From the NCBI GenBank assembly GCA_035255945.1, contig DATEZA010000123.1:11627-75626 (forward strand): a DNA stretch of 64,000 nt. Reading direction: 5' to 3'. Origin of the DNA: Thermoanaerobaculia bacterium (GTDB lineage Bacteria; Acidobacteriota; Thermoanaerobaculia; Gp7-AA8). Below are positions 8,700-64,000 of the stretch, piece after piece. The position numbers and the translations under genes are program-made. The notes below the pieces were generated by a model. It made no database searches. It was not told the origin of the DNA and worked only from the letters and a program-made list of their open reading frames with translations. How positions within the stretch are numbered: position 1 is the first letter of the stretch; every line of letters begins with the position of its first letter.

Positions 8700-8807
8700 A
8701 AACTTCCTTGCTGAAAAAAATGGTCGCGAAGACTGCAGGACGTGCGTCGCAAAAGCAAACGATCGTCGACGAATTCGCGCCGGTATGGCCTATGATCGAC
8801 GGCCTGA

Positions 8808-21309: not shown

Positions 21310-22018
21310 AGATCTCCATCGTCTTCCCGTCCTGCAGCAGCACGACATTCGTTCCCGCCGGCAGCGCGCGATCCGCTTTCCCGCGCACGTTGCCGACGCG
21401 CGTCAGCTTCTGCACGATCGCGTAATTCGTCAGCGTGCGTCCGCCGTTCTCGCCGCGCGCGACGTTCGTCGTCTGCGCGTCGCCGACCGTCAGCGCGATC
21501 AGCTCGAGCTCCCGCGGCGCGTTGATGTGCGCAACGTCCGCCTCGATCGACAGCGATGCATTCGCAGCGCGCTTCGACGCTTCTTCGATCGCGCCGAAGA
21601 GCCGCCGTTCATCCGAGCCGATGAATTCGCGTCGTCCATCGACGACGGCCTGCGGCGTGTACGCGCCGCTGATGCCGAGCGCGCGCACGTAATCCGACTG
21701 CCGTTGCGACCACTCGGCAGATGAAAACGGATCGCGCCAGCCGAGGTGATTCCAGTAGTCGACGTGAAAGGCGAGCGGGATCACGCGGCCGCGGAGCGAG
21801 GCGTCGCGCGCGATGCGCCCGAGGAGCTCGTCGGCGGGAGGACAGGAAGAACAACCCTGCGAGGTGAAGAGCTCGACCACCACCGGCGACGATCCGATGC
21901 GCGATGCGAGCGGTGCCGGTTGCGAGGTGACGTTCACAACGAATGCGATCGCGACGACTGCGACAGTGATCACAAGAACGCGGGACATGGCTGCGTTAGA
22001 ATCGCGAGAAATCTTCAC
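21263..22018 (-). CDS. DUF1223 domain protein
   Basis: VVVELFTSQGCSSCPPAD motif and length match DUF1223. True start may be the internal MSRVLVITVAV (21988). Confidence 0.75.
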   Translation of the reverse strand: MKISRDSNAAMSRVLVITVAVVAIAFVVNVTSQPAPLASRIGSSPVVVELFTSQGCSSCPPADELLGRIARDASLRGRVIPLAFHVDYWNHLGWRDPFSSAEWSQRQSDYVRALGISGAYTPQAVVDGRREFIGSDERRLFGAIEEASKRAANASLSIEADVAHINAPRELELIALTVGDAQTTNVARGENGGRTLTNYAIVQKLTRVGNVRGKADRALPAGTNVVLLQDGKTMEIWSAAVPAAVGGRLAR

Positions 22019-22030
22019 AGGAGTATCACG

Positions 22031-22957
22031 ATGCGTTTGATCACGCGGTCCGATTTCGACGGCCTCGTCTGTGCGGTTCTTTTAAAAGAAGTCATGGACA
22101 TCGATCCGATCGAGTTCGTCCATCCGAAAGATGTACAGGACGGCAAGATCGCGGTCGGCGCGAACGACATCCTGACCAATCTGCCGTACGTGCCGGGCGT
22201 CGGACTCTGGTTCGATCACCACTCGAGCGAAGCGGTGCGCAACGACATGGATGGCGTGTCGTACGCCGGCCGCTTCGAAGTCGCGCCGTCGGCCGCGCGC
22301 GTCGTCTACAACTATTACCAGGAGAAAGGCGACAGCGCGAAGTTCGGCAAATACGACGAGCTGCTCACGGTAGTGGACAAATCGGACTCCGCGAATCTCT
22401 CGCGCGAAGATGTGGTCAGCCCGAGCGGATGGATCCTGCTGTCGTACGTGATGGACCCGCGCACCGGACTGGCGTACTACCGCAATTACCGCATCAGCAA
22501 TCGCGACCTGATGATGAAGATGGTGGAGTGGATTCCGTCGAAATCGGTCGCCGAGATCCTCAACGAGCCGGACGTAAAAGAGCGCGTCGATCGCTACTTC
22601 GAAGGCGTCGAAGAGTTCCGGCGCATCAATCAGAAGCATTCGCGCGTCGACGGCAACGTGATCATCACCGACCTGCGCGACATCGGCGAGATGCCGACCG
22701 GCAATCGATTCCTGATCTACACGATGTTTCCCGAGCAGAACATCCAGGTGCGCATCTTCGACGGCAAGAGGGGCGAGTTCGTCGTCTGCGCCGTCGGTCA
22801 TTCGATCTTCAACCGCACGTCGAATACCGATGTCGGCAAGCTGATGGATCGCTACGGCGGCGGCGGCCATCGCGGCGCCGGCACGTGCCAGCTGCCGATC
22901 GAAGGCGCGGATTCGAAGATCCGCGAGATCATCGAGAAATGTAAGCGGGACGGTTGA
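22031..22957 (+). CDS. DHH-family phosphoesterase
   Basis: Start MRLITRSDFDGL (DHH motif I); WFDHHSSE (DHH motif III). The longer ORF from 21746 is antisense to the DUF1223 gene. Confidence 0.7.
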   Translation: MRLITRSDFDGLVCAVLLKEVMDIDPIEFVHPKDVQDGKIAVGANDILTNLPYVPGVGLWFDHHSSEAVRNDMDGVSYAGRFEVAPSAARVVYNYYQEKGDSAKFGKYDELLTVVDKSDSANLSREDVVSPSGWILLSYVMDPRTGLAYYRNYRISNRDLMMKMVEWIPSKSVAEILNEPDVKERVDRYFEGVEEFRRINQKHSRVDGNVIITDLRDIGEMPTGNRFLIYTMFPEQNIQVRIFDGKRGEFVVCAVGHSIFNRTSNTDVGKLMDRYGGGGHRGAGTCQLPIEGADSKIREIIEKCKRDG

Positions 22958-22958
22958 C

Positions 22959-23018
22959 GTCATCCCGAGCGTAGTCGAGGGCCCCCCGCGCAGGTCCCTC
23001 GACTACGCTCGGGATGAC
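22959..23018. repeat. perfect 23-nt-arm hairpin (GTCATCCCGAGCGTAGTCGAGGG)
   Basis: Arms at 22959-22981 and 22996-23018 are exact reverse complements with a 14-nt loop. Located immediately after the 22031-22957 stop. Confidence 0.8.
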
Positions 23019-49771: not shown

Positions 49772-49841
49772 TCTCCGGCAGGTTGACGCGACCTCGCGGG
49801 AGAAATACGATGTCCCGGTCGTTCGTTGACAGAGATCCCAT

Positions 49842-49917
49842 AGGCGCTTAGCTCAGTCGGTAGAGCATCACCTTCACACGGTGGGGGTCAACGGTTCGAG
49901 TCCGTTAGCGCCTACCA
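49842..49917 (+). tRNA. tRNA-Val (anticodon CAC)
   Basis: Hand-folded cloverleaf: acceptor AGGCGCT/AGCGCCT, D arm GCTC-AGTCGGTA-GAGC, anticodon arm TCACC-TTCACAC-GGTGG, T arm AACGG-TTCGAGT-CCGTT, encoded CCA. Confidence 0.9.
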
Positions 49918-49930
49918 GATAACTCGTTGA

Positions 49931-49967
49931 AGCCGCTCAGGTTGCGCAGACCGGGCGGCTTTTTTTT
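49931..49967 (+). terminator. hairpin + T7 terminator after tRNA-Val
   Basis: AGCCGC...GCGGCT stem followed by TTTTTTT (49961-49967). Confidence 0.6.
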
Positions 49968-49983
49968 GCCTTCCTTCTGCCGA

Positions 49984-50005
49984 AAGTGTTCACGCAAGTG
50001 TTCAC
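49984..50005 (+). promoter_or_regulatory. paired AAGTGTTCAC direct repeats (candidate recombinase arm sites, attL side)
   Basis: AAGTGTTCAC at 49984-49993 and 49996-50005. The same 9-mer pair occurs at the other island end. Confidence 0.35.
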
Positions 50006-50140
50006 CGGGTCGCGGTTGGGTCCGAGACCGCGTCGCATCCGGCGCTCTTTCCTGCGCGACGAACGACAAATCAAGTTGTTGCGAGAGCATCGGACTCTGT
50101 AATGATCGACTGACAATGCTTGCTCGCGCCGTGAGCTCCG

Positions 50141-52819
50141 TCAGCGCCTCTTCGCGGCCGGGATCACGTTGACTGTCGCGCTCCCGCTAGTCCTGCTGGA
50201 ATCGTTCTCGATCATGATGGTGTAGGTCGTGGTTTGCCGAGGTGAGAGGCGCAACTGTCCTTGCAAAGGAACTGCGCCCACATCTGGCGTGATGACCACA
50301 CGCGTGGCATCGAATGAGTTCCATTGCAGGAGTATCTGTTCGCCGCGTTGGATCGTGTCGGGAGTCACGATGATGGATCCTGAGACAGGTTTCGAGGCTG
50401 GCGCAGCGACAACGAGTGTTGCGGTACCTTGTGCATGATCCTGTCCGTTCGACACGGTTATTGTGTACGTCGTCGTCTCTAGGGGCGATACGTCAACTTG
50501 GCCTGATGGTGCAACGAATCCAATTCCTGGTGTGATTTTGATTCGCGTAGCGTTGATACTTTTCCAGTCGAGATGAGCTGATTGGCCTGGCGCAATCGAA
50601 GCAGGTGAGACGCTCATTATTGCCGCCGGCGCCGCGTTTTGTGGAGCCACGCTGGCTTGCTGCCCTACGACCTGTGGTCGTTGGACGTCGAGCGTCACAG
50701 ACGCTTTCGCCGGACGACCGCTTGCGCTCCAGCCTTGGAGGGTATACGTCGTCGTTTGTGTCGGTGCGACGGTGATCTTGCCGCGTGGCTCGACCGTGCC
50801 AACGAGCGGGTTGAGTGCCAGCGTGGTCGTATCAATCGACGACCAATCGAGGTGCGCTGTCTCTCCGCGCCTGATGATCCCAGGCGTGACGCCCATTTCC
50901 AAAGCCGCCGCCGCGTCTCGTGTCAGGAGATGCACGATGGCCTTTCCGTACACCTCGCCAGATGGCGTACCGTCAGCGTTCGGGGCGTTTCGTGCCTCGA
51001 CCTTGACGAGGAAGCTCTTGCCGGCCGCGAATAGTTCTAGCGGAAGGGTGACGGTACCTTCGCGGGGGCCCACGCTTGGTGCCTTCGTGAACACGTTTCT
51101 TCCATTGATCGAGATGGTCCCGCCGTCATCCAGGGTGTAGTTCAGCCTTGCCTGCGTAACCGTGCGGTGTGCCGGTACGGAGCAGGACGTCGAGTCCGAT
51201 GTCAGTATCCCTACTCCTGCCTGTGTCTCAGCAGTGCAGGCCACGGCAAGGCCTGGAGGCGCAACTATCCCCGTGGGAGTAGCGGCGGGTTCGACGTGTA
51301 CCGTTGCGGATGCCTGCGCGCTGTCGCCGGTATCGTTGCTGATGGTCATCGTGTACGTCGTCGTGGCGCGTGGTGTGACTTGGATCCTGCCGTGTAGGGG
51401 GACGATGCCGATGCTTGGCGTGATCACCACATGCGTCGCGCCAAAGGAGTTCCATCGCAGTTCCGGAACCGTTCCGTTGCGACTGATGGTGTCAGGCGAC
51501 GCGATGAGCGATCCTGTTACCGGGGCGACCTCGTAGTCGGCCGGTCGGTTCGTGACGGTGACCATTACTGCGCCGCGTGCGATGACACCGTCGGCGTTCG
51601 TCGACACGATTTCATACGTTGTCGTAGCGCGTGGAGAGACGTCGATGCTGCCCGTCGGACCGACGATGCCGATGTTCGGGCTGATGACGACATCCACGGC
51701 GTCGGTAGATGACCACGTGAGCTTGGCGGACCCTCCGAAGGTGATGGTGCCGGGTGATGCCGTCAGGCCACACGCCGGGAGGTGTTGCGTCGTTGCCGTG
51801 GCCGGTGCCGTGTGGAACCGCGGGGGTGCTACACGAGGTCGTCGCTCTTGGTGTAACGTGATCGCGCCTGCCAGTAAGAGCGTTACCAGCAACGCCATCA
51901 GCAGCGAGCGGCGCGGAAAAGCTGGTGGCGGCACAACGTCGCCATCGGTGACCTTAACCGTCGTCGCATCCTGAGTGATGGCTGGGGCGACGGTCGCTTT
52001 GGCGCTTCGGGCTGGTGGTAGTTCTCGGAGGGCCCGTCCAATATCAGCAGCAGAGTCGTATCGCTTGCGGGGTTCTTTTTGCAAGCAGCGAGCGACGATG
52101 TCGCCGACAGGCTCGCGAAGGGGGGCAGGGAATTCACAATTGATAGCGTGGATCGTGTGATATGGCGTTGCGCGATGAAACGGATGGCGTCCGGTAAGCG
52201 CTTCATAGAGGACGATACCGAATGAAAAAATATCCGTACGGTAATCGACTTTTTTCGAGGCGTCCGTTTGTTCGGGCGAGAGGTAGTCAATTGTTCCTAC
52301 AATCGTGTTTGTCGTCGTAATCGTCGCGCCTTCGGTTCTTGCCAGTCCGAAGTCGACGATGCGCGCGCGGTCGTCCGTCCCGATCATGATGTTCGCGGGT
52401 TTCAGATCGCGATGCATGAACCCCTTGCGGTGGAGTTCCTCAAGCCCATCGGCGACCTCACTCATCCAGCGGACGAGTTGGTCGTTGCTTGCCTTGCCGA
52501 TGTGGTCGCGCAACGTCGTCCCGTCGATGAACTCCATGACGAGGTAGGGACGCTCGTGACCATCGTGCAGAAAGGCGCCAACGTCGTATACGCTGACGAC
52601 GTTCGGATGCTTGAAGGCCGCTCCGGCTTGTCCTTCGCGAACAAATCGTTGGATATCGTGGGGCGTGGTGCCCAAGAGGAGCTTGATCGCAACATCGCGC
52701 TGGAGTTCGGCGTCTCTTGCTCGGTATACCTCGCCCATACCACCGGCGGGCAAGACATCGGTGATCTCAAAACGACCGTCGAGGCGCTCGCCGATCCGAA
52801 GCGTAGGAGTCTTGTCCAT
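50141..52819 (-). CDS. receptor-type Hanks Ser/Thr kinase with five extracellular Ig-like repeats
   Basis: Kinase motifs GGMGEVY, VAIK, HRDLKPAN, DFGLAR, SPE. One TM segment (LLMALLVTLLLAGAI). Five ~75-90-aa repeats with consensus SP..I..G.SA.L.W.S..AT.V.I.P.IG.V...G...VSP..TTTYT, plus one unrelated central domain. Confidence 0.88.
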   Translation of the reverse strand: MDKTPTLRIGERLDGRFEITDVLPAGGMGEVYRARDAELQRDVAIKLLLGTTPHDIQRFVREGQAGAAFKHPNVVSVYDVGAFLHDGHERPYLVMEFIDGTTLRDHIGKASNDQLVRWMSEVADGLEELHRKGFMHRDLKPANIMIGTDDRARIVDFGLARTEGATITTTNTIVGTIDYLSPEQTDASKKVDYRTDIFSFGIVLYEALTGRHPFHRATPYHTIHAINCEFPAPLREPVGDIVARCLQKEPRKRYDSAADIGRALRELPPARSAKATVAPAITQDATTVKVTDGDVVPPPAFPRRSLLMALLVTLLLAGAITLHQERRPRVAPPRFHTAPATATTQHLPACGLTASPGTITFGGSAKLTWSSTDAVDVVISPNIGIVGPTGSIDVSPRATTTYEIVSTNADGVIARGAVMVTVTNRPADYEVAPVTGSLIASPDTISRNGTVPELRWNSFGATHVVITPSIGIVPLHGRIQVTPRATTTYTMTISNDTGDSAQASATVHVEPAATPTGIVAPPGLAVACTAETQAGVGILTSDSTSCSVPAHRTVTQARLNYTLDDGGTISINGRNVFTKAPSVGPREGTVTLPLELFAAGKSFLVKVEARNAPNADGTPSGEVYGKAIVHLLTRDAAAALEMGVTPGIIRRGETAHLDWSSIDTTTLALNPLVGTVEPRGKITVAPTQTTTYTLQGWSASGRPAKASVTLDVQRPQVVGQQASVAPQNAAPAAIMSVSPASIAPGQSAHLDWKSINATRIKITPGIGFVAPSGQVDVSPLETTTYTITVSNGQDHAQGTATLVVAAPASKPVSGSIIVTPDTIQRGEQILLQWNSFDATRVVITPDVGAVPLQGQLRLSPRQTTTYTIMIENDSSRTSGSATVNVIPAAKRR

Positions 52820-53011
52820 AGAGGAGCGCGAGGGATCCTACCGGAAATCCTGCACTCCGGCACTGCGGAATGCGGATCTTCGCACTTGGTAGCTGACGCG
52901 TAACCCAGGCTACGGTCAGTGTCGCCCCGTCACAGCCGCGTTCGTGGAAACCGATCAGACGAGCGCCTGTAAAACGGCGTCCAGCGCCTCGGCACTAGCG
53001 ATGCCGCGCGG

Positions 53012-53395
53012 TTGCTCGGCATGACGCGCGGCCGACTGGAACGCGAAGCGCGACGCGACCAGGAAGACGCGTACCGCATCAACGGCCGCTGGCGCTTCAC
53101 GTGGCGACAGGTCGCCTACCTCGCGCTGCGGCAGTGGTCGCTCGCGCACCTTCACGAGGCGCTCGGAACGGACGCAGCGAGCGTTCTGCCGTCGCTGCTC
53201 GCGTTGCGCACGATTTCCGTTCGGCTACCCGAGTACCTCGTGCGGGCCATTGAACACTCGGCCGTAAGCGACGACACCACGATGGACGACTGGCTGCACC
53301 ATGAGTTGGTCGACTTCGCCGGCACCGTGGTTGATCAGATGGAGCGCGTTGCGCCTGGTTTTCGTCGCGCGTACATCTTTCCGGGCAACGAGTAG
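53012..53395 (+). CDS. excisionase-type HTH protein (N-terminally compromised)
   Basis: Open frame from 52973 reads GTSDAARLLGMTRGRL...AYRINGRWRF (HTH_17-like). The first possible starts (TTG 53012, ATG 53021) lie inside the HTH. An in-frame TAA is at 52970. Confidence 0.5.
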   Translation: MLGMTRGRLEREARRDQEDAYRINGRWRFTWRQVAYLALRQWSLAHLHEALGTDAASVLPSLLALRTISVRLPEYLVRAIEHSAVSDDTTMDDWLHHELVDFAGTVVDQMERVAPGFRRAYIFPGNE

Positions 53396-53543
53396 CCGCG
53401 CGCCGTCACCGAATCTACTCTAAGTAGAATTGGCTGCGCACGTGATCCACTGCGTGTGGACGGGCGAACTTCACCTCGTCGAGTTGGCGTCCTACCAGCT
53501 AAATTTATGTAGAACATGCGCATCACGCGCATGGAGGAACTAC

Positions 53544-56500
53544 ATGCCTGAACCCCAAGGACGAATCGCGAGCCCCGCGTCGTCCGGCGGCGAAGGGACG
53601 TACTTCGAGCAGCACACGAACGCCTACTGGCTCGCTCTACTGCTTGTGGACGCAATCCCTCCGATGGCGCTGGACGGCACGATCTCCAAGGTCAGCTTTC
53701 AGACGGAGCATCTCGGCTGGTCAACTGACGACGTGCTCGTCACGAGTCGCACGAGCACCAGCGACATCCGGCAACTCGCCTGTCAGGTGAAGAAGTCGCT
53801 GACGATTGGTGCCGACGATGCTGAGTTCTCCGGCACGATCATCGATGCCTGGAAGGACTTCTCCAACGCGACCGTGTTTCGCGAGAACATCGACGCGCTC
53901 GCGCTCATCACGCAGCTCGGAACGAATGTGGTGCTGCGCGACTTTGCAGCACTCCTTGACTGCGCACGTGGGTCCTCAACCATCGCGGATTTCGAGCACC
54001 GCCTCGGGACTCCCGGATTCGTCAACGCACGAGTCCGCACCCACGCTACCGTCATCGAGGAGATTCTCCAGACCCACGAAGGAGGAGCCGTCGACCGCGA
54101 GCGCATGTGGGCGTTTCTCCGACACCTGTACGTCCTCAGCCTCGACCTGAACACCGCGACATCGCAGACTGCAGCGCACGTACAAACACTGCTCGCCCAC
54201 ACCGCGACGGAGAAGGACCGCCTCGCAGCTGCCGCGGCAACTTGGAATGAACTCCTCGCCGAAGTCTCGCACGGCGCGCCCGAGGCGCACGAGTACGAGC
54301 GCACCTCGCTACCGGCATCGGTTCTCGCCCGACACGCGCCGCTCTCAACAGCCGATCGGCGCGCCCTTGATCGTCTCGCGCATCACTCACGCGTGATCCT
54401 CGACGGTATCCGTACCACGATCGGCGACGAGCTGCATCTGCCACGCACGAAGGTCCTGACGCAGCTGATCGAGCAAATGGAACGTTCGCGCGTGCTTCTC
54501 GTGGCCGGAGCAGCGGGTAGCGGCAAGTCTGCCGTCGTGAAAGAGGCCGCGGAGGTGCTCGCGCGTGATCACTTCGTGTTTGCGTTCCGCGCCGAAGAAC
54601 TGGCGCAACCGCACTTCGACACTACGCTGACAACCATAGGCGTCATGCTGAGCGCCGAAGAACTCTCTGGCGTCCTCGCCGGCCAAGCTCGAAAAGTGCT
54701 CATCATCGAAAGCGTCGAGCGACTCCTCGAAACGACCTTTCGCGACGCATTCACTGACCTCCTTCGCTTCGCACGAAAAGATCCCACCTGGCGCCTGATT
54801 CTCACGTGTCGCGACTACTCAATCGAATTGCTGCGTGCGGCGTTCCTCCATGCTGCGGCGACACCCCACGACACCCTCCACATCCCTCCGCTCGACGACG
54901 ACGAAATCGCAGACGTTGGGGCACACGCGCCGATACTTCGTCGCCTGTTGGAAAGCAGCCGCCTGCGCAAGCTACTGGGCAACCCGTACGTCCTGAACAT
55001 CGCCGTTCGAACGCCTTGGCGAGAGGATGATCGCCTACCGGAATCAGAGCGTGACTTCCGCGGGCACTTCTGGCGGTCAAGGGTGCGTGCAGAAGAGCGA
55101 CGCGAGGGTGGCCTGCCACAGCGGCGCGCCGATGCGTTCATGCAGATCTGTGCGCGCCGCGCGCAAGCGCTGAAGCTCTTCGCGCCGATCTCTGGCCTCG
55201 ACGCGGAGGCCGTCACGGAGTTGGAGAACGACAGCCTCGTCGTGTCGTCTCCCGAGAATCGCGCGCTCGCTGCACCCGCGCACGATGTACTCGAGGACTG
55301 GGGCGTTCTTGAATGGATCGAGCACCTGTATCAGCAGGCAAATGACTCGGTGGAGGAGTTCGCGCGCACCCTCGGAGACTACCCTGCGGTGCGGCGCACG
55401 TACCGCACGTGGATCAGTGAACTCCTGGAGCGCGATCCCGTCACCGCGGACGCGTTCTTCGACGCTGTCGTCACGGACGAAGCGCTCCCGCAACACTTTC
55501 GTGATGACACGATTCTCGCGTTTCTCCGCTCAACCCACGCGCCAGCGCTCCTGACGCGACACGCAACGCGGCTGGTCGAGAACGATAAGCGTTTGTTGAG
55601 GCGCATCGTGCACCTCTTGCGCGTCGGCTGCGTGACGGTACCTGCGTGGCTTCCATCGCCAACCGCATCAAGCATTCTTGCCTATCCCGAAGGGGAAGCA
55701 TGGCCGACCGTGCTCGCGATCGTTCGCGATCATCTGCCGTTGTTCGATGAGCGAGATCGACAACTCCTTCTCGGGTTCGTGGAGGATTGGGCGAAAGGCG
55801 TGAACTGGCAGGTGCAGTATCCGGCGGGTCATGAAGCCGCCGCCGCCATCACGCTGTGGCTCATCCCTCGCTGCGACGGTTACCTGTCCGAGGATCTTCT
55901 GAAGCGCGCGCTGAAGGTACTCGTGAAGATCCCCGCATCTGATGCAGCGGCGTTTGCCAGTGTTCTTCGAGGGCATGCTGGCGAGGAACGTGACCGCACG
56001 GCGGAAGAACTCCAAGAGCTCGTGTTCGACGGGATGGAGGGAAATGCGGTCGCTCGCGATCTGCCGGATCTCCTCATCGAAGTCGGCAAAGCATACTTTC
56101 TCGCCCCGCCAGAAGACCTGGACAATCCCTACGGGTACTCGCTCGGCGTTGAGCTGTTTTTCGGCATCAACGAGTCGCGCGGCCACGGTCACTTCCCGCC
56201 CAGCGTTTGGCGCGGCCCGTTCCGACCGCTGCTCCAGCATCACTGGAAGAAGGGTCGTGATTTCATCGTGGACTTGCTCAACTACAGTGCCGAATGGTAC
56301 GGCCAAGGCCTCGGCCCCGATCGCGACATCGAGCCAGCATTCGAGATCACGCTGATGTTCGCGGACGGCACGCGGAAGAAGCAGTGGGCGAATGCGCGAC
56401 TCTGGCAGCTGTATCGCGGGACATCAGTCACGCCCTACCCGCTGCAGTCGGCGGCGATGGCGCTTGAAGCGTTTCTCTTTGAAGTGGCGAAGCAGGATGT

Positions 56501-56966
56501 GAACCTCCTCGATCCCGTGCTGCTGCAGTTGCTGCGGGCCAGCACGTCCGTGTCCGTGACTGCGATTGTCGCGAGCCTCGCGGTCGCCTACCCGCGATCG
56601 TGCGGCGAAACACTGCTCGTGCTGCTCTCCAGTCCCGAGTGCATACGACTGGACCGCGCGCGCATGGGAACGACGGGTCAGGTTCCCCGTATTCACGGCT
56701 CCCGCAGCACGATACTTGGGGTGAAATCTTCGCGAAGGAGCGCACGGAGGCCGACGCGCAGCAGCATCGCCAGCAGGATCTCGAAGCCGCAATTACGCAA
56801 CTGCAGGCGAGCGCGTACGGGCCTCGCGTGTGTGAAGCAATCGACAACCACCGGGCGGCGATCCCGGCCACGACCGAACAGACGGAAGAGCATCGCCTCT
56901 GGCGACTCGCGCTGCATCGTATGGACCTGCGCAACTACGTGCCCGCCGAAAAGACGGCAGCCATGA
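53544..56966 (+). CDS. NACHT/STAND-like P-loop NTPase with nuclease-like N-terminal domain (N-terminal ORF of a frameshifted gene)
   Basis: GGAGG 6 nt before ATG 53544. E..DD..QVK signature (53706-53792). Walker A GAAGSGKS (54507-54530), Walker B-like KVLIIES, LILTCR sensor motif, then helical repeats. Beyond about 56690 the frame turns into Arg/Ser-rich nonsense. Confidence 0.75.
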   Translation: MPEPQGRIASPASSGGEGTYFEQHTNAYWLALLLVDAIPPMALDGTISKVSFQTEHLGWSTDDVLVTSRTSTSDIRQLACQVKKSLTIGADDAEFSGTIIDAWKDFSNATVFRENIDALALITQLGTNVVLRDFAALLDCARGSSTIADFEHRLGTPGFVNARVRTHATVIEEILQTHEGGAVDRERMWAFLRHLYVLSLDLNTATSQTAAHVQTLLAHTATEKDRLAAAAATWNELLAEVSHGAPEAHEYERTSLPASVLARHAPLSTADRRALDRLAHHSRVILDGIRTTIGDELHLPRTKVLTQLIEQMERSRVLLVAGAAGSGKSAVVKEAAEVLARDHFVFAFRAEELAQPHFDTTLTTIGVMLSAEELSGVLAGQARKVLIIESVERLLETTFRDAFTDLLRFARKDPTWRLILTCRDYSIELLRAAFLHAAATPHDTLHIPPLDDDEIADVGAHAPILRRLLESSRLRKLLGNPYVLNIAVRTPWREDDRLPESERDFRGHFWRSRVRAEERREGGLPQRRADAFMQICARRAQALKLFAPISGLDAEAVTELENDSLVVSSPENRALAAPAHDVLEDWGVLEWIEHLYQQANDSVEEFARTLGDYPAVRRTYRTWISELLERDPVTADAFFDAVVTDEALPQHFRDDTILAFLRSTHAPALLTRHATRLVENDKRLLRRIVHLLRVGCVTVPAWLPSPTASSILAYPEGEAWPTVLAIVRDHLPLFDERDRQLLLGFVEDWAKGVNWQVQYPAGHEAAAAITLWLIPRCDGYLSEDLLKRALKVLVKIPASDAAAFASVLRGHAGEERDRTAEELQELVFDGMEGNAVARDLPDLLIEVGKAYFLAPPEDLDNPYGYSLGVELFFGINESRGHGHFPPSVWRGPFRPLLQHHWKKGRDFIVDLLNYSAEWYGQGLGPDRDIEPAFEITLMFADGTRKKQWANARLWQLYRGTSVTPYPLQSAAMALEAFLFEVAKQDVNLLDPVLLQLLRASTSVSVTAIVASLAVAYPRSCGETLLVLLSSPECIRLDRARMGTTGQVPRIHGSRSTILGVKSSRRSARRPTRSSIASRISKPQLRNCRRARTGLACVKQSTTTGRRSRPRPNRRKSIASGDSRCIVWTCATTCPPKRRQP

Positions 56967-58636
56967 AAGACACCGTGCCCGCGAACTGCATCGTCATCAC
57001 CCCAGCCGCTCCTGAGACGGACTTGCAGGAAATGATGGAGGAGAGTTCGACACGCCACGCGCGCGTGAGCGAGCGCATCGGCAACCAGATGTGGGGCATC
57101 AAGATGTTCGAGCGCGATCCCGGCACCTACGATCCGGCGGAGTGGCGCAGCCGGCTCGCCGCAGTTCGAGCAGGCGAGGCAGCCGCTGATGTTCCTGCGG
57201 ACGAGATGTTCTTTGGTGACGGTGCGGGAGTCACTGCCGCCGTGTGTGTCCGCGATCACTGGGAGGAGATGAACGAGGAGGAGCACACGTGGTGTGTGCG
57301 CCGCGTCTGCGATGAAATTGCGCGAACAGCGGATGACTGGTCTGAGACCCCTCAGATGCTTGGCCTGATGAACGGAGCCGTACCAGCGGCGACTGTCGTC
57401 CCACAGATCGTCATGCACGGGAAGCCCACAGATCGCGCAGCCGCGCTAGAAGCGCTCGCTGTGGCGCTAACGCATCCAAATCGTGAGGTGTACCTGGCCG
57501 CGGCTCGTGGAAGCCGGGAGCTTTGGAGTGAGCACCGCGACCTCGCATTGCGCTGCGTCCACGCGTTGCGCGTGCAAGCCATGACCTTCCAGCAGACCTT
57601 CGACGCAGAGCAGACCAAGCCGTACCGGAAACGTGCGGAGACCGGAAAACTTCGCAGCAAGGCGGCATCGATAGCGCGCAAGATCATCCGCGGGCGTCGT
57701 GCACTCACAGCAGACGATGTCTCGGCCTTCACGCTTGACGGATGGTTTACGGCCGACGCGAGCATCGCCATTCTCATCATGCTCTCGAACGCGCCAGAGG
57801 AGCGAACCACCTTCGACGCGTTCGCACAAGTAGCGACGACACTCGTGGCGTGGTGGGAGGCAGATCGACACGACCGGTCGCACCGGCGTGAGAGTCGCTC
57901 ACACGAGACTGAGTACGCCCTCAAGGAGCTGCTCGCCGAAGGACTCTTCCGCGTGCCGGAGAGCGACGCAGCGAAGATCCTCCAGCCACTCCTCGATGCC
58001 GTCGACACGCACGCGGACAAAGTCGCCGATATCCTCCACGACATCATCGTGCGTGAAGACCGAAACCGCTCGACCGCGCGGTTCTGGTTCCTCTGGAAGC
58101 TGTTTGCTAATCGAATCCGCACGGCCCGATGGCTTCCGAACATCGATGCGGACCATGCCTGGGGACGCCAACTCCTCGACCACGTACTCCTCTCCCGTGG
58201 CTGGAAGGACAGCACGCGGCACTGGACGAGCCTTGAAGGGTACGCGCAACACGTTCACAGCTTGTTCGAGCAACTCCCACTCTCGCGAGCGGCACTTCGT
58301 CGATATCTCGCCTTCCTGTACCACGTCGGAGAGCAGTCGCTCCCGGAGGCGTTTATCCGACTGCACGCGAAGCTGCGCCACGCAAATGCGCCGGAACTCC
58401 TCGGCGGAGGCGACAGCGCATTTGTACTTGAGTCGCTTTTGCTGCGGTACGTGTACGCGAAGCCGTTTGAGCTCAAACGCCGCCCCGACATGCGCGCGGC
58501 GGTCCTATTCCTCCTCGACGCGCTCGTAGAAACCGGTTCGTCCGCAGCGTTTCGAATGCGCGACGACTTCGTAACCCCACTCTCGGTGGCGAGCGAGCAA
58601 CATCAGCAAGCGCAACCTGAGCCGGTTAACGCGTAG
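56600..58636 (+). CDS. C-terminal helical-repeat part of the same NTPase (second ORF, frame +2)
   Basis: Sensible sequence only from about 56690 (SPYSRLPQHDTWGEIFAKERTEAD...). There is no plausible start near that point. Continues as an alpha-helical repeat-like sequence to 58636. Confidence 0.65.
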   Translation: MRRNTARAALQSRVHTTGPRAHGNDGSGSPYSRLPQHDTWGEIFAKERTEADAQQHRQQDLEAAITQLQASAYGPRVCEAIDNHRAAIPATTEQTEEHRLWRLALHRMDLRNYVPAEKTAAMKDTVPANCIVITPAAPETDLQEMMEESSTRHARVSERIGNQMWGIKMFERDPGTYDPAEWRSRLAAVRAGEAAADVPADEMFFGDGAGVTAAVCVRDHWEEMNEEEHTWCVRRVCDEIARTADDWSETPQMLGLMNGAVPAATVVPQIVMHGKPTDRAAALEALAVALTHPNREVYLAAARGSRELWSEHRDLALRCVHALRVQAMTFQQTFDAEQTKPYRKRAETGKLRSKAASIARKIIRGRRALTADDVSAFTLDGWFTADASIAILIMLSNAPEERTTFDAFAQVATTLVAWWEADRHDRSHRRESRSHETEYALKELLAEGLFRVPESDAAKILQPLLDAVDTHADKVADILHDIIVREDRNRSTARFWFLWKLFANRIRTARWLPNIDADHAWGRQLLDHVLLSRGWKDSTRHWTSLEGYAQHVHSLFEQLPLSRAALRRYLAFLYHVGEQSLPEAFIRLHAKLRHANAPELLGGGDSAFVLESLLLRYVYAKPFELKRRPDMRAAVLFLLDALVETGSSAAFRMRDDFVTPLSVASEQHQQAQPEPVNA

Positions 58637-58657
58637 ATCCGAAGGGGCGTCTTAGTC

Positions 58658-58678
58658 TAGTGTTCACCTAGTGTTCAC
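58658..58678 (+). promoter_or_regulatory. paired TAGTGTTCAC direct repeats (candidate arm sites, attR side)
   Basis: TAGTGTTCAC at 58658-58667 and 58669-58678, followed by TATCCTAGG x2 and AGGATGTCC/GGACATCC inverted motifs (58700-58770). Confidence 0.35.
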
Positions 58679-58782
58679 GCGGTCGCCGTACGGCTATCCT
58701 AGGCTGTCTTAGGATGTCCATGGTCGCTCGTAAAGCATTGAAACTACGTATATCCTAGGACATCCGCGGACCGGGACAGCTT

Positions 58783-58827
58783 TTCACACGGTGGGGGTCA
58801 ACGGTTCGAGTCCGTTAGCGCCTACCA
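58783..58827 (+). repeat. attR-like copy of the tRNA-Val 3' half
   Basis: TTCACACGGTGGGGGTCAACGGTTCGAGTCCGTTAGCGCCTACCA, identical to 49873-49917. Lacks the tRNA 5' half. Confidence 0.9.
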
Positions 58828-58845
58828 AAATGTAATTGCTTTCAG

Positions 58846-58883
58846 GGCCACGAGTTACATGACTCGTGGCCTTTCGTTTTTTT
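58846..58883 (+). terminator. rho-independent terminator (probable original tRNA-Val terminator)
   Basis: GGCCACGAGT-TACATG-ACTCGTGGCC followed by TTTCGTTTTTTT. Confidence 0.8.
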
Positions 58884-58974
58884 GTCCGAACCTCTGGCCA
58901 ATTTGCCTCTCAACTCTTCATAGAAGTCTTCAATGACTTAGCGGCGCCGCACTGTAGATATTCACCCGCGAAAG

Positions 58975-59454
58975 GTGAGCTTCGTCGGTTCGGCACTCCT
59001 TCGACTTTCTTTCGCGATCTTCCGGACTTCTTTCGACGTCGATCGCCAGAATGATTCGGTGAAGAGTGGCAGCGTGGCGATTGCCGTTCCACGTGATCCG
59101 GATCGTGCGCGCGCGATCATTACGCGCGGCCGCCGCATCGCGCGTTATCTCGGGATTGAGTGGATTGCCGTACGAATTGAGCGTGCCGCACTTCCTCGCG
59201 ATCGACGCGGCATGGGGACCGATCTTCGGGATCTCGTAACTGGTCTTGGCGGTCGTTTTCTCTGCGCTGAGGCGCGCGACATCGCGGCGGGACTCATCGA
59301 GGTGTCGCGACGCGAGCACGCGCGGCTCCTTGTGATCGGCAGATCGCGAAGGCCACGGCTCCTGCGTCGGCTGAAGCGCGGCACGACGGAGCGGATTCTG
59401 AGTGCGAAACGACCGTTCGATGTCGTCGTGGCCGATGAAGGAGTGGATCGTTGA
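58975..59454 (+). CDS. universal-stress-protein-like domain protein (KdpD-linker type), possibly a remnant
   Basis: VAIAVPRDPDRARAIITRGRRIARYLG...LLVIGRSRRPRLL...RPFDVVVA resembles a USP fold. GTG start and N-terminus uncertain. Confidence 0.45.
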   Translation: MSFVGSALLRLSFAIFRTSFDVDRQNDSVKSGSVAIAVPRDPDRARAIITRGRRIARYLGIEWIAVRIERAALPRDRRGMGTDLRDLVTGLGGRFLCAEARDIAAGLIEVSRREHARLLVIGRSRRPRLLRRLKRGTTERILSAKRPFDVVVADEGVDR

Positions 59455-59644: not shown

Positions 59645-61012
59645 TCACTTTGATCCGTTGGCGTAGCTTCGCGGCAGGATCACGCGAAACGTGGATCCCT
59701 GGCCCCGCTTTGTCGCGAGCTCCAAGCCGGCGTCGAGCAGCTCACACAGCCGCTTGACGATCGATAGTCCGACGCCTTCTCCAGTATGCGCGTCATGGGG
59801 AACTTCTGACGATTCGGAGGGAAGGGTTGTGGCGGGAGGTATGCCGAGGCGCCGATCCGTGCTCATTTCCTGCGCATCCTCAGCCACCTCCGTCGCTTTG
59901 TGAATTTCCTGCGCGAGTGGCGCCGCGTGCTCTTCATCGATGCCCGGCCCTGTGTCGCTGACAGAGAACATCCATCGGTCGGTGTCGCGTCCTTTGTCCT
60001 CTCCCCATGTGACTGATACCCCACCACGCTGCGTGTACTTCACCGCGTTGAGCAACAGATTTTGAAGGATGCGCAGGACCTTCGGCTTGTCGCCCTCGAC
60101 CTGCAGCTCGCCGGGGCCGTCGATCTTCAGAAACAGCCCGCGGTCGGTGGCCGTCACCTGCGAGGCAGTGCAGAAATCGCGGAGGAGCACTGCCGCATCG
60201 AACGTGGTGATCTCGCGTTGTTCCTGCCCCGCTTCGAGACGGGCCAGGCTCAACAGATCATTCAGCATCTCGTGGAGCGACGAGACGCTCTTGCTGAGCA
60301 TGTCGGCGACTTCCGACCGAACTGGATCGGGCATCGCCCCACCTCCCTCATTGAGCAGCGTCGTGGCCCCCTTCACCACCGTGACGCTGCCGCGCAAGTC
60401 GTGCGCAGCCGCGCGCCACCCTTCGGCACGCGAGCGCTCCAGGTTGTGCAGAGTGGTGAGAGCGCGTTCAAGATCGCTGACGTGTCCCGCCGATTCGGTT
60501 TGCTGGAGCCGACCGTACTGAGTCGCGCTCTCGGCGACTCCCTCCGCACACAGCTTGGACCACGCCATACGCGCAGCCGGCATAACGCCGGCATCGAGCG
60601 AGGGATGAGCCGCGGCGTACCGCTCCAATTCCGCGGCCACACACATCTGCAGGTAGCCCCACTCCCGGATCAACTCATTGAGTTGATAGCCTTGCTGCCA
60701 GCGCTGTAAGCCGTGTTCCAGAACCTTCTCAGACTCTTCTTCTTCGGCGCGCGCGCTCGGCATGTCCGGCCACGCCGCGAGCGTATCCGTCAGACAATCG
60801 AGAACAGCTGGGATGTGATCGTTGAACTGGACGCGGGAGAGGGATGACCCGACGTTACGTCCCGGCGCCGCGTCACCATAGGCTCGCCATGAGTCGAGAA
60901 TGATGTCCCGCCGTGCAAGCAGCTCCGCGGCGAGAGCGCTCAACTGCTCTTTGGCGGCTCTTCCCGCAAAGACGGTGTGGACGTCGTGTGCGTCACTGCG
61001 ATCCTGAGTCAT
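59645..61012 (-). CDS. cytoplasmic sensor histidine kinase (orphan)
   Basis: H box AAHDLRGSVTVV, N box LLLNAVKYT, G boxes DTGPGI and GEGVGLSIV, with a long insertion in the ATP lid. N-terminal helical sensor domain (RsbRD_N-like, tentative). No TM segment. Confidence 0.85.
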   Translation of the reverse strand: MTQDRSDAHDVHTVFAGRAAKEQLSALAAELLARRDIILDSWRAYGDAAPGRNVGSSLSRVQFNDHIPAVLDCLTDTLAAWPDMPSARAEEEESEKVLEHGLQRWQQGYQLNELIREWGYLQMCVAAELERYAAAHPSLDAGVMPAARMAWSKLCAEGVAESATQYGRLQQTESAGHVSDLERALTTLHNLERSRAEGWRAAAHDLRGSVTVVKGATTLLNEGGGAMPDPVRSEVADMLSKSVSSLHEMLNDLLSLARLEAGQEQREITTFDAAVLLRDFCTASQVTATDRGLFLKIDGPGELQVEGDKPKVLRILQNLLLNAVKYTQRGGVSVTWGEDKGRDTDRWMFSVSDTGPGIDEEHAAPLAQEIHKATEVAEDAQEMSTDRRLGIPPATTLPSESSEVPHDAHTGEGVGLSIVKRLCELLDAGLELATKRGQGSTFRVILPRSYANGSK

Positions 61013-62726: not shown

Positions 62727-63365
62727 ATGCAGCGAAACGTCGTCGACCGGACCAGACTGAACAGCAGCGCGACACTCCCCTTCCAGCTGCGGCTCGAGGA
62801 TTTCGCGCTGGCGATGCAGGACGTGTACGACTTCTTCTACGACGTGAACGTCGGACTGGTGGCGAAGGGACTGGAGCGGCTCGATGACATGCTGCGCCCG
62901 GCGAACATGTCGGGCACGATCTCGGACATGCTGACGGCGAGCCTCGCCAAACACTCGCGGACGCTGACGCAGAACCACTACCACAATGGACATCCCGACC
63001 TCGTCGTCCGCGGCGTCTATCCCGCCAATGCCGTGCAAGCCGGCACGGACGGCGTGGAGATCAAGACGACGCGCAAAGCGGGCGGTGCTGTCGACACACA
63101 CGGCGGCCGCGATCAGTGGATGTGCGTGTTCGTGTACGAGGTCGACAACAAATCAGAGCCCGCGCGCGAACGACGGCCGATGCGATTCACTGAGGTGTAC
63201 CTGGGCCAGGTCTGCGAGGCCGACTTCCGCCGCAATCTGCGCGGAGAGAAGGGCACGCCGACGTCGACGTTGAATCGCGAAGCCATGAAGCGGCTTCGCG
63301 AGCACTGGATTTACACGCTGAACGCCGCCAACCTGGCAATCGCGTTCGACGCAATCGCGAAATAG
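62727..63365 (+). CDS. putative type II restriction endonuclease
   Basis: PD-(D/E)xK-like signature HPDLVV...DGVEIKTT (62997-63065). Convergent with, and overlapping by 55 nt, a DNA methyltransferase gene. Confidence 0.55.
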   Translation: MQRNVVDRTRLNSSATLPFQLRLEDFALAMQDVYDFFYDVNVGLVAKGLERLDDMLRPANMSGTISDMLTASLAKHSRTLTQNHYHNGHPDLVVRGVYPANAVQAGTDGVEIKTTRKAGGAVDTHGGRDQWMCVFVYEVDNKSEPARERRPMRFTEVYLGQVCEADFRRNLRGEKGTPTSTLNREAMKRLREHWIYTLNAANLAIAFDAIAK

Positions 63366-64000
63366 CGCGGATCCTTCTCGATCCCGATGCTGCGATAGCC
63401 GACCGCCTCCGCCGCGGCAAGCGTCGACCCCGAGCCTGCGAACGGATCGAGCACGATGCCCGTCCCGAGCGGCAGCACGCCACGCACCAGCGCGCGGAGA
63501 AACGCCTGCGGCTTCAAACTCGGATGCGGCGCGAGGTCGCGCTCTTTCTTGTGCGTCGGCGACGACGGAATCACATCGCCGAACGGCTTGTCCGCCGACG
63601 GCCTCCGAAACCCGCCCGTCCCCCACTTCCGCAAGTTGTCCTGCACGCGCCCCTCGGGCTGTTTGCGGAACAGCACCCACGGCTCCCACATCGAGCGCGG
63701 CATCACGCTCACACCGCTGAACTCTTCGTGCGCATGCTTCGGCCGGTCGCCGCCGCGCATCGTCATCACCAGCCGCACGATCTCGCCGCGCCGCTCCAGA
63801 CCTGCTCGCGACAGCGCCGATGAAACGACGTGCGAGAGCAGCGGATTGCTCGCCACGACGACGTTCGCTCCCGGCACGAGCACCGGCAGCAGCGCCTGCG
63901 CCCACTCGAAAAAGAATCGCGACAACTCCTCGAGATCCTCGGCGGAGAGCACCGTGAAGCGCGGCAGCGGCGATCGCTTCGTGCCGTCGAAGCTCGGCGG
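63311..64000 (-). CDS. beta-class N4/N6 DNA methyltransferase (5' end outside window)
   Basis: C-terminal DPFAGSGSTLAAAEAVGYRSIGIE (AdoMet motif I) and HPSLKPQAFLRALV, typical of PF01555 methylases. The frame is open to the window end. Confidence 0.85.
   Translation of the reverse strand, partial: PPSFDGTKRSPLPRFTVLSAEDLEELSRFFFEWAQALLPVLVPGANVVVASNPLLSHVVSSALSRAGLERRGEIVRLVMTMRGGDRPKHAHEEFSGVSVMPRSMWEPWVLFRKQPEGRVQDNLRKWGTGGFRRPSADKPFGDVIPSSPTHKKERDLAPHPSLKPQAFLRALVRGVLPLGTGIVLDPFAGSGSTLAAAEAVGYRSIGIEKDPRYFAIASNAIARLAAFSV

What the first reader, a model, noticed from the sequence alone, without database searches (positions are those of the whole stretch)
49842..58827. 8.9-kb lower-GC island bounded by a 45-bp direct repeat of the tRNA-Val 3' half, with no recombinase gene
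Seen: an intact tRNA-Val(CAC) lies at 49842-49917. Its last 45 nt (49873-49917) recur exactly at 58783-58827, and the flanks diverge immediately on both sides. Each copy is followed by its own hairpin plus T-run (49931-49967 and 58846-58883). Hand G+C counts are about 53% inside the island (50461-50520) versus about 72% in a backbone line (4021-4080). Established: tyrosine-integrase islands insert into tRNA 3' ends and leave this kind of attL/attR duplication. Inference: 49918-58782 is an integrated element. It is unusual because its only three genes (kinase, HTH, giant NTPase) include no integrase. It is therefore either an immobilised remnant or an element that depends on a recombinase supplied in trans.
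Basis: partly seen in the sequence, partly recalled or inferred. Interest (0 to 1): 0.8.

Follow-up and report, generated by a model that had tools for sequence, protein, structure and literature searches.

The report
Integrase-less defence island at tRNA-Val
This is a real 8.9-kb mobile island inserted into a tRNA-Val gene of a soil Acidobacteriota (Thermoanaerobaculia) genome; it has lost its own integrase, carries a broken anti-phage gene, and sits next to the scar of a second element, which makes it an ordinary decayed island rather than a new kind of element.

Summary
The tRNA-Val(CAC) gene, the exact 45-bp repeat, both terminators and the missing recombinase are all present as described. 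The GC contrast is real but small: 61.7% in the island against 64.4% in the backbone, not 53 against 72%.

The island belongs to a widespread family of tRNA-Val-specific integrative elements in soil metagenomes. I call it family 1 and define it here by its site layout. GTGTTCRC pairs lie at -123/-112 (P arm) and +70/+82 (P' arm) around a core that begins at the first base of the anticodon loop. Some members encode a PF00589 tyrosine integrase. Most members seen over 3 kb or more, and all 11 seen end to end, have none or only a fragment.

The window copy has perfect att sites but no trace of an integrase. Its cargo is a Ser/Thr kinase, a 5'-truncated HTH gene and an Avs4-like STAND NTPase. The NTPase has a Cap4-like nuclease head and is split by a frameshift seen in independent assemblies.

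The supposed backbone to the right begins with the P' arm of a second att family (CTCTTCAT sites). The locus is therefore a tandem accretion. The closest known analogue is a CIME (cis-mobilizable element), a decayed island that keeps attL and attR. Whether it can still be mobilised in trans is untested.

The parts
49842..49917 (+). Intact tRNA-Val(CAC) gene. A sigma-70-like promoter lies at 49783-49811.
   Evidence: ARAGORN; promoter scan.
49873..49917 (+). attL core: repeat copy 1, running from the first base of the anticodon loop to CCA.
   Evidence: Exact 45-mer, two copies, 0 expected by chance. The same core with a degenerate T-stem occurs 118 or more times in soil metagenome contigs, as both intact and partial tRNA copies.
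49918..50030 (+). Family-1 P' arm. It holds the element's own tRNA terminator (hairpin 49929-49962 plus T-run) and two arm-type sites AGTGTTCAC at 49985-49993 and 49997-50005.
   Evidence: Fold at -21 kcal/mol. AGTGTTCAC occurs only 4 times in the window, all at the island ends. The arm is 90-95% identical to P' arms in L103, L117, L137 and L194. GTGTTCRC pairs lie at +70/+82 in 27 of 72 intact-tRNA loci.
50141..52819 (-). Cargo gene: an 892-aa Ser/Thr protein kinase with repeated Ig-like C-terminal domains.
   Evidence: Pfam Pkinase 3.7e-46. PADLOC PD-T4-6 models hit only through the generic kinase domain. An identical gene is present in Logan contigs L216 and L217.
53012..53395 (+). HTH-like gene that appears 5'-truncated. 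Homology to the 162-aa L214 protein starts at 52997 (DNA similarity from 52989), an in-frame stop lies at 52970-52972, and there is no start codon ahead of helix 1.
   Evidence: Translation. 70% aa identity to L214 residues 31-162. No Pfam, NCBIfam or PADLOC family. Gene callers give 124 aa starting at ATG 53022.
53544..58636 (+). Cargo gene: an Avs4-like STAND NTPase with a Cap4-like nuclease N-terminal domain. A frameshift at about 56672-56678 splits it into 1140-aa and roughly 650-aa parts (gene callers give 571 aa for the second).
   Evidence: NCBIfam and PADLOC Avs4 profiles are matched in two pieces. Intact homologues are about 1690 aa, 80-86% identical. The frameshift is mapped with P0002 and P0003. 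The same split appears in JGI and Logan assemblies that are 100% identical. P0003 matches PDB 8dgf (Avs4) at 4e-71. The N-terminal model matches LmuA, Cap4, HamA and Avs3.
58655..58782 (+). Family-1 P arm. It holds arm-type sites AGTGTTCAC at 58659-58667 and 58670-58678, and conserved ATCCTAGG motifs at 58696-58703 and 58752-58759.
   Evidence: The arm is 77-84% identical to P arms in at least 16 metagenome loci. GTGTTCRC pairs lie at -123/-112 ahead of 30 of 49 partial tRNA copies. Conservation profile.
58783..58827 (+). Repeat copy 2. It serves as the attR core of the family-1 element and also as the attL-type core for the family-2 arm that follows.
58828..58979 (+). P' arm of a second att family. 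It holds a terminator hairpin at 58844-58873 and sites CTCTTCAT (58914-58921) and GTCTTCAA (58926-58933). It carries a deletion of about 59 nt relative to L164 and L211.
   Evidence: 85% identity to L164 positions +1 to +104, then window +103..+152 matches L164 +163..+212. CTCTTCAT pairs lie at +85/+97 in L162, L164, L192 and L211 (+75/+87 in L119) and at about -149/-138 in L132, L168, L183, L192, L194, L200 and L201. Fold at -22.2 kcal/mol, z = -5.

Best explanation
The segment 49918-58782 is a non-autonomous, decaying member of a family of small integrative islands, here called family 1. A tyrosine integrase inserts these islands into the tRNA-Val(CAC) gene of soil Acidobacteriota.

How integration works (inferred). 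The element's attP carries the 3' 45 nt of the tRNA plus its own terminator. Recombination within this core, most likely at the 7-nt anticodon loop where identity begins, rebuilds a functional tRNA at attL. The original 3' part is displaced to attR. Integrase is positioned by paired arm-type sites, AGTGTTCAC twice in each arm.

What is shown for this copy. The integrase gene has been lost and no remnant remains. The 5' end of the HTH gene is missing, and the Avs4-like defence gene is frameshifted. Both cores and all four arm sites are intact.

The element lies in a tandem array. Immediately beyond its attR core sits the P' arm of a different tRNA-Val element family, family 2. The locus is best described as a CIME-like remnant produced by integration, decay and accretion at a hot-spot tRNA.

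What remains open. It could be excised only by a family-1 integrase supplied from elsewhere. Whether that still happens is not known.
For: Structure in the window:
- tRNA, exact 45-bp repeat and the two terminators.
- Four AGTGTTCAC sites, found only at the island ends.

Family-level architecture in 118 metagenome loci:
- Site pairs at fixed offsets -123/-112 and +70/+82.
- Window arms are 77-95% identical to arms in unrelated host contexts.

The family's integrase:
- PF00589 integrase (about 1e-30) inside family members L203 and L137. Truncated copies or remnants occur in L166, L103, L176, L174 and L143. The gene is always on the strand opposite the tRNA, apart from the weak fragment in L143.
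- No integrase signal in any frame of the 64-kb window (best E 0.26).

Mobility in the family:
- Empty against occupied alleles on the same chromosomal flank in another lineage: L098 against L105, 92.5% identical over 1345 bp.

Decay of this copy:
- Frameshift.
- Truncated HTH gene.
- A relative (L221) carries the orthologous NTPase in an older family-1 array with eroded cores and arm sites.

Tandem arrangement:
- Family-2 arm at 58828-58979.
- L194 and L132 show the reverse order of the two families.

Other:
- Atypical composition.
- Defence cargo in relatives (pAgo, OLD/GajA-like plus AbiEii).
Against: - No orthologous empty site was found for this lineage. The nearest relatives on the left flank are themselves occupied: L234 by a family-1 arm and L145 by a third type of arm. 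The right-flank genes have no counterpart in any fetched locus.
- The perfect 45/45 core and four consensus arm sites are not what a long-dead remnant would show (compare L221). The element may be recent or still active.
- The crossover position and the binding of integrase to GTGTTCRC are inferred from layout, not shown.
- The frameshift is seen in several assemblies, but these may draw on related samples.
- Only about 67 kb of the genome was visible, so an integrase elsewhere in the genome cannot be excluded.
Confidence: 0.78

Rival explanations
1. The island is still a mobile, non-autonomous element. It would be excised and integrated in trans by a family-1 integrase encoded elsewhere in the cell, for example on an incoming autonomous relative. 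In this reading integrase-less family-1 elements behave as exchangeable defence cassettes rather than dead remnants.
For: - Both cores are identical (45/45) and all four arm-type sites match the consensus.
- In contrast, the att sites of the L221 array are eroded.
- Integrase-less but att-flanked members are the majority of family members seen.
- Junctions with both a P arm and a P' arm around a partial core exist (L126, L147 and the third core of L187; L138 has variant GAGTTCAC sites). They could be attP circles or tandem joints.
- The arms are far more conserved than host flanks across loci.
Against: - No integrase was found in the roughly 67 kb visible.
- No excised circle or empty-site contig was recovered for this element; every contig 100% identical to the window that was recovered (L210, L216-L219, L227-L229) agrees with the integrated arrangement.
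- Two of the three cargo genes are damaged, which argues against recent selection on the element.
- The P-plus-P' junctions are equally explained by tandem arrays such as L187.
Confidence: 0.2
2. The 8.9 kb is only the first module of a larger composite island that continues beyond 58828. The integrase that moves it lies further right, outside the window, so mobilisation would be in cis as in CIME-ICE tandems.
For: - A family-2 P' arm follows directly after the second core.
- The right flank is also compositionally atypical: 62.4% GC, and a tetranucleotide distance of 0.177 against 0.126 (sd 0.020) for backbone windows of the same size.
- It carries an N6/N4 DNA methyltransferase and has no synteny with any relative.
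- In L164 a tyrosine-integrase fragment lies about 600 nt after the same kind of arm.
Against: - There is no integrase and no third core copy up to about 67.4 kb.
- The family-2 arm sites (CTCTTCAT) differ from family-1 sites (GTGTTCAC). A family-2 integrase would not be expected to use the family-1 arms at attL.
- The family-2 arm in the window has a 59-nt deletion and one degenerate site, so it may itself be a scar.
Confidence: 0.25
3. The repeat is not an att duplication. It would be a chance or duplicative copy of a tRNA fragment, and the 8.9 kb would be ordinary chromosome.
For: No orthologous empty site was found for this lineage. The GC difference is only 2.7 points.
Against: - An exact 45-mer is expected 0 times by chance.
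- The arm-site layout is identical to dozens of independent loci.
- Integrases occur inside family members.
- An empty/occupied pair exists in another lineage.
- The tetranucleotide distance is twice the largest value among backbone windows.
Confidence: 0.02

Closest known systems
CIME (cis-mobilizable element): a decayed integrative element that keeps attL and attR, often in tandem accretion with another element (Pavlovic 2004 and Bellanger 2011, as reviewed in PMC5704250)
   Same: It has lost its integration gene but keeps both att sites. It sits at the 3' end of a tRNA gene. Another element's att arm is joined to its attR core, which is the outcome of the three-step model of integration, decay and accretion.
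   Different: CIMEs are defined as derivatives of ICEs or IMEs. No relaxase or conjugation genes were seen in integrase-bearing relatives over 8-10 kb. The neighbouring arm belongs to a different arm-site family, and no neighbouring integrase was found, so cis-mobilisation is not demonstrated. The host is a soil Acidobacteriota, not a Firmicute.
tRNA-targeting tyrosine-integrase genomic islands with an anticodon-loop crossover (Williams 2002 sublocation classes; recalled from memory)
   Same: The repeat spans from the first base of the anticodon loop to CCA. The element supplies a replacement 3' half and a terminator. Arm-type repeats lie on both sides of the core. The family integrase is PF00589 with a SAM-like N-domain.
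   Different: This copy has no integrase. The sequence just 5' of the window's attR core (GGGACAGCTT) does not mimic the anticodon stem, unlike many family members that have GGTGGnnTCACC there. The crossover site is therefore inferred, not shown.
Avs4 (AVAST type 4) anti-phage STAND NTPase, PDB 8dgf
   Same: The NTPase core and the long C-terminal sensor region are homologous. The intact orthologue P0003 hits PADLOC Avs4 at 9e-143 over profile positions 164-1569, and PDB 8dgf at 4e-71.
   Different: The N-terminal effector is not matched by the Avs4 profile or by the 8dgf alignment (which start at profile position 164 and chain residue 182); it is a Cap4/LmuA/HamA-like nuclease fold. Scores fall far below the NCBIfam equivalog cut-off: 370 and 120 bits against 1500. 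The window copy is frameshifted.
Tandem genomic islands at the Dehalococcoides ssrA (tmRNA) gene (PMC3146451)
   Same: A single small-RNA gene serves as a hot spot where several islands accumulate in tandem, separated by direct repeats of the gene's 3' end.
   Different: The target gene and the phylum differ. The comparison rests only on the abstract seen, and I did not examine that system's arm-site structure.

Membership tests
tRNA-integrated tyrosine-integrase island | Flanked by a direct repeat that equals the 3' part of the target tRNA gene | tested here: met
   45/45 identical, 49873-49917 = 58783-58827.
tRNA-integrated tyrosine-integrase island | Arm-type recombinase sites on both sides of the core (attP architecture) | tested here: met
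   AGTGTTCAC twice in each arm, at offsets conserved in dozens of loci. Binding itself was not tested.
tRNA-integrated tyrosine-integrase island | Encodes its own integrase | tested here: not met
   Family HMM against six frames of the window gives a best E of 0.26. The island ORFs have no recombinase domain. Relatives L203 and L137 do encode PF00589.
tRNA-integrated tyrosine-integrase island | An empty-site allele exists in relatives | tested here: inconclusive
   No orthologous empty site for this lineage. For the family in another lineage the feature is met: L098 (empty) against L105 (occupied) share a flank at 92.5% over 1345 bp.
tRNA-integrated tyrosine-integrase island | Composition differs from the backbone | tested here: met
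   61.7% against 64.4% GC, with 0 of 164 backbone windows as low. Tetranucleotide distance 0.237 against a maximum of 0.12.
CIME (cis-mobilizable element) | Has lost integration and transfer genes but keeps attL and attR | tested here: met
   Definition taken from PMC5704250.
CIME (cis-mobilizable element) | Derived from an ICE or IME (relatives carry conjugation or mobilisation genes) | tested here: inconclusive
   Integrase-bearing relatives show an integrase plus defence or unknown genes over 8-10 kb, with no relaxase or T4SS domain among the ORFs scanned. Their full extent was not seen.
CIME (cis-mobilizable element) | Lies in tandem with an integrase-encoding element of the same att specificity that can excise it in cis | tested here: inconclusive
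   A second element's arm abuts attR, but it is a different arm family and no integrase occurs within 8.6 kb.
Avs4 (AVAST type 4) | STAND NTPase core and C-terminal sensor homologous to Avs4 | tested here: met
   PADLOC Avs4 at 7e-104 and 3e-32 for the two halves. Orthologue P0003 at 9e-143, and PDB 8dgf at 4e-71.
Avs4 (AVAST type 4) | The family's own N-terminal effector domain (Avs4 profile positions 1-163; described as an Mrr-like nuclease, recalled from memory) and the NCBIfam equivalog score | tested here: not met
   Profile positions 1-163 are unmatched. The N-terminal domain folds like Cap4, LmuA and HamA nucleases. Scores of 370 and 120 bits against a cut-off of 1500.
Prophage or phage satellite | Phage structural or replication genes, or presence in viral contig collections | tested here: not met
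   No such domains in the island. The 38-nt 3' part of the core, and the P arm plus core, are both absent from IMG/VR. The arm motif alone gives only chance hits without the tRNA core.

The most novel reading that the evidence does not exclude
Family-1 elements may form an integron-like exchange system at tRNA-Val in soil Acidobacteriota. Short integrase-less units flanked by att sites, each carrying one or two defence genes (Avs-like, pAgo, OLD/AbiEii, kinases), would be kept recombination-competent. A minority of integrase-bearing relatives would shuffle them in trans, stacking them in tandem arrays with a second, orthogonal att family. The window copy, with perfect cores and arm sites, would be one such live cassette rather than a fossil.
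Probability: 0.15. Interest if true: 0.6.

Novelty: new member of a known kind. Interest (0 to 1): 0.3.

Why it matters
For annotation, the repeat at 58783-58827 marks a joint between two elements, not the end of foreign DNA. The split "ATP-binding protein" (HJW93458.1) is a frameshifted Avs4-like defence gene.

More broadly, the analysis defines two att families for tRNA-Val(CAC) in an under-studied soil phylum: core, arm lengths and arm-site motifs. It also links them to a specific integrase clade and to defence cargo. This gives a simple sequence rule for delimiting such islands in Acidobacteriota metagenomes.

If the integrase-less copies proved to be trans-mobilised, the locus would be a natural array of exchangeable immune genes. 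As things stand it is a well-documented example of island decay and accretion, not a new mechanism.

Tried and rejected
1. Empty site through the left-flank MBL gene in species-representative genomes. The nearest genome is only 62% identical at the protein level (L001). Its tRNA-Val lies 4.5 kb from the MBL gene, so it is no use as an empty site. Its terminator resembled the window's attL terminator. I first read this as meaning the attL trailer was native. I rejected that once the metagenome loci showed that element P' arms carry a terminator homologous to native tRNA-Val terminators.

2. L164 and L162 as empty sites (intact tRNA followed by the window's attR trailer). Rejected. The shared trailer is the P' arm of a second att family with its own CTCTTCAT site pairs.

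3. Closer relatives found through the MBL protein. L232 has no tRNA next to the gene. L233 ends inside the tRNA. L234 is occupied by a family-1 arm. L145 is occupied by a third kind of arm.

4. The right-flank genes (181-aa protein, histidine kinase, 317-aa, 212-aa) have no homologue in any fetched locus.

5. Viral-contig scans for the arm motif, for the 3' part of the core, and for the P arm plus core gave chance hits or nothing.

6. The histidine kinase at 59645-61012 as a possible misread integrase. Rejected by Pfam.

7. An integrase to the right of the window. The identical contig L227 extends only to about 67.4 kb and holds none.

8. The PD-T4-6 PADLOC hits of the kinase were not taken as evidence of a defence role, because only the generic kinase domain matches.

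Full report
**Observation**

ARAGORN finds one tRNA in the window, tRNA-Val(CAC) at 49842-49917. Its last 45 nt recur exactly at 58783-58827. There is no other copy at up to 3 mismatches, and none is expected by chance. Flanking identity drops to background straight away: 8 of 30 and 6 of 30 bases. The repeat begins at tRNA position 32, the first base of the anticodon loop. Each copy is followed by a stable hairpin and a T-run, at -21.0 and -22.2 kcal/mol.

The island is 61.7% GC against 64.4% for the left backbone. That is lower than all 164 backbone windows of equal size. Its tetranucleotide distance is about twice the largest backbone value.

**Gene content**

The island is filled by four features.
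- A Ser/Thr kinase with Ig-like repeats lies at 50141-52819 on the - strand.
- A small HTH-like gene lies at 53012-53395.
- One large STAND NTPase gene appears as two overlapping ORFs (53430/53544-56966 and 56600-58636).

The Avs4 profiles of NCBIfam and PADLOC are matched first by one ORF (profile about 161-936) and then by the other (about 954-1577). Intact homologues are about 1690 aa and 80-86% identical. Alignment with them places a frameshift at about 56672-56678. The same split occurs in a JGI contig and a Logan contig that are 100% identical to the window, so it is unlikely to be an assembly error.

The intact orthologue P0003 matches the Avs4 structure 8dgf (4e-71) and the PADLOC Avs4 profile from position 164 to the end. 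The N-terminal region of about 290 residues is not matched by the Avs4 profile or by 8dgf. An AlphaFold model (pLDDT 77.5) best matches the nuclease domains of LmuA, Cap4, HamA and Avs3.

The HTH gene is 70% identical to residues 31-162 of a 162-aa protein in L214. In the window the frame is closed by a stop eight codons before the homology starts, and no start codon precedes helix 1. It looks 5'-truncated.

**No recombinase**

None of the island ORFs has a recombinase domain. After finding the family's integrase (see below), I built an HMM from six copies and searched all six frames of the 64-kb window. The best E-value is 0.26. The gene downstream at 59645-61012 is a histidine kinase.

**The element family**

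AGTGTTCAC occurs four times in the window, and only there: twice 68-88 nt after the first core and twice 105-124 nt before the second, all on the + strand.
- 72 copies are intact tRNAs and 49 are partial copies.
- GTGTTCRC pairs lie at exactly -123/-112 in front of 30 partial copies.
- The same pairs lie at about +70/+82 after 27 intact tRNAs.
- An alignment shows further conserved blocks, including two ATCCTAGG motifs in the P arm and a conserved terminator in the P' arm.

This is the layout of a tyrosine-integrase attP with arm-type sites. That reading is an inference from position, since binding was not tested. The window's arms are 77-95% identical to arms in loci whose host flanks are unrelated.

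Clustering of ORFs inside these elements recovered a 391-aa protein in L203 and L137 that is a PF00589 tyrosine integrase (about 1e-30). The gene lies on the strand opposite the tRNA, 0.4-4 kb from the core.

**Integrase loss is the rule**

Among 13 loci with at least 3 kb of sequence after a family-1 P' arm, two have a full integrase, four have fragments and seven have none. All 11 elements seen from core to core lack a complete integrase: L116, L128, L143, L166, L187a, L187b, L191, L195, L221a, L221b and the window. L143 is reduced to 632 bp containing an integrase fragment. This count is biased towards short elements, because loci are at most about 15 kb. The absence of an integrase is therefore ordinary for this family.

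**Evidence of mobility**

I could not find an orthologous empty site for the window's lineage.
- The nearest species-level genome is only 62% identical in the flanking MBL protein.
- Closer metagenomic relatives are occupied. L234 (80-83% nt) has a family-1 P' arm. L145 (82% nt) has a different pair of arm repeats. L233 breaks inside the tRNA.
- In another lineage the test does succeed. L098 (intact tRNA, no arm sites) and L105 (family-1 P arm plus partial core) share the downstream flank at 92.5% over 1345 bp.
- DNA downstream of the tRNA is hypervariable among relatives that share the left flank.

**The right boundary is a joint between two elements**

The trailer after the second core (58828-58932) is 85% identical to the sequence that follows an intact tRNA-Val in L164. 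I first took this for an empty site. The trailer, however, carries its own site pair, CTCTTCAT and GTCTTCAA.
- In L162, L164, L192 and L211, CTCTTCAT pairs lie at +85/+97 after cores (+75/+87 in L119).
- In L132, L168, L183, L192, L194, L200 and L201 they lie at about -149/-138 before partial cores.

This is a second att family with the same geometry and different arm sites. L194 and L132 show the reverse order: a family-2 P arm, the core, then a family-1 P' arm. The L194 arm is 95% identical to the window's.

The window locus is therefore a tandem array. The right-hand DNA is compositionally atypical, has no synteny with any relative and includes an N6/N4 methyltransferase. It holds no integrase and no third core up to about 67.4 kb. 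The window's family-2 arm has a 59-nt deletion and one degenerate site, so it may be a scar.

**A terminator puzzle resolved**

The terminator after the intact tRNA resembles the one downstream of tRNA-Val in the distant genome L001. That would be odd if it were element DNA. The metagenome loci show that family-1 P' arms carry a terminator homologous to native tRNA-Val terminators of the clade. The element brings a replacement 3' half and a replacement terminator.

**Interpretation**

The best-supported reading is an integrated family-1 element that has lost its integrase and is decaying, in tandem with at least the arm of a family-2 element. This matches the published three-step route of integration, decay to a CIME, and accretion (PMC5704250).

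Membership of the CIME class is incomplete. Descent from an ICE or IME is not shown, and neither is a cis-acting partner integrase.

The intact cores and arm sites contrast with the eroded sites of the L221 array, which holds the orthologous NTPase. They keep open the possibility that the element is recent or still mobilisable in trans. I put that at about 0.2.

**Cargo and context**

Relatives carry a class II pAgo next to the integrase (L137) and an OLD/GajA-like ATPase plus AbiEii (L214). The window carries an Avs4-like NTPase. The family is a vehicle for defence genes. Orthologues of the NTPase also occur as single-gene inserts at non-tRNA sites (L220, L223).

The host is a Thermoanaerobaculia (Acidobacteriota) MAG. 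The NTPase N-part is HJW93458.1.

**Verdict**

It is a new member of a known kind, with low-to-moderate interest. Its most useful products are the two att-site definitions and the corrected right boundary.

Noticed in passing
window 58828-58979; L119, L132, L162, L164, L168, L183, L192, L194, L200, L201, L211: A second family of tRNA-Val att arms. CTCTTCAT pairs lie at about -149/-138 (P arm) and +85/+97 (P' arm; +75/+87 in L119). The core is the same as in family 1 but the arm sites differ. The two families stack in either order.
   Followed up: partly
L145 about 5270-5320 (Ga0157375_10000014): This is the closest left-flank relative found in the first metagenome scan (82% nt). It has a third kind of arm repeat after its intact tRNA-Val, AAAGGGTGAGGTTCAACCGT twice, which implies yet another element family at this site.
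   Followed up: no
L138, L148, L157: GAGTTCAC sites replace GTGTTCAC at the P' positions (+72 to +87). This may be a family-1 subtype with altered arm specificity.
   Followed up: no
window 58696-58703 and 58752-58759; P arms of 26 loci: Two conserved ATCCTAGG motifs lie in the family-1 P arm between the arm-type sites and the core. They are candidate binding sites for an accessory factor such as an excisionase or a bending protein.
   Followed up: no
window 53544-54470: The N-terminal domain of the STAND NTPase is predicted to be a Cap4/LmuA/HamA-like nuclease. E22, D62-D63 and K83 are invariant and Q81 is nearly so. The domain sits in front of an Avs4-like NTPase and sensor, a swap of effector relative to Avs4.
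   Followed up: partly
L220 10001-15094; L223 10001-15064: Orthologues of the NTPase (81-82% nt identity) sit as single-gene inserts at non-tRNA sites next to toxin-antitoxin genes (HicA, PhdYeFM). The gene therefore also moves independently of the tRNA-Val elements.
   Followed up: no
L137 4685-6748 (locus + strand): A class II prokaryotic Argonaute (PADLOC 5.6e-158) lies directly beside the family-1 integrase.
   Followed up: no
L143 1265-1896: A 632-bp miniature family-1 element lies between two perfect cores and contains only an integrase-fragment ORF. It is an extreme deletion derivative.
   Followed up: partly
L001 5523-8504: In the nearest species-level genome a kinase-NB-ARC-TPR protein sits immediately 5' of tRNA-Val. 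Ser/Thr kinases also recur inside family-1 elements (L103, L193, L198, L215).
   Followed up: no
window 63311-64000 and beyond (L227 5695-6816): An N6/N4 DNA methyltransferase gene runs off the right end of the window, within the compositionally atypical right-hand region.
   Followed up: no
window 8001-9000, 22001-23000, 38001-39000: Other compositional outliers occur in the backbone: 55.2% and 59.8% GC, and an AT skew of -0.325.
   Followed up: no
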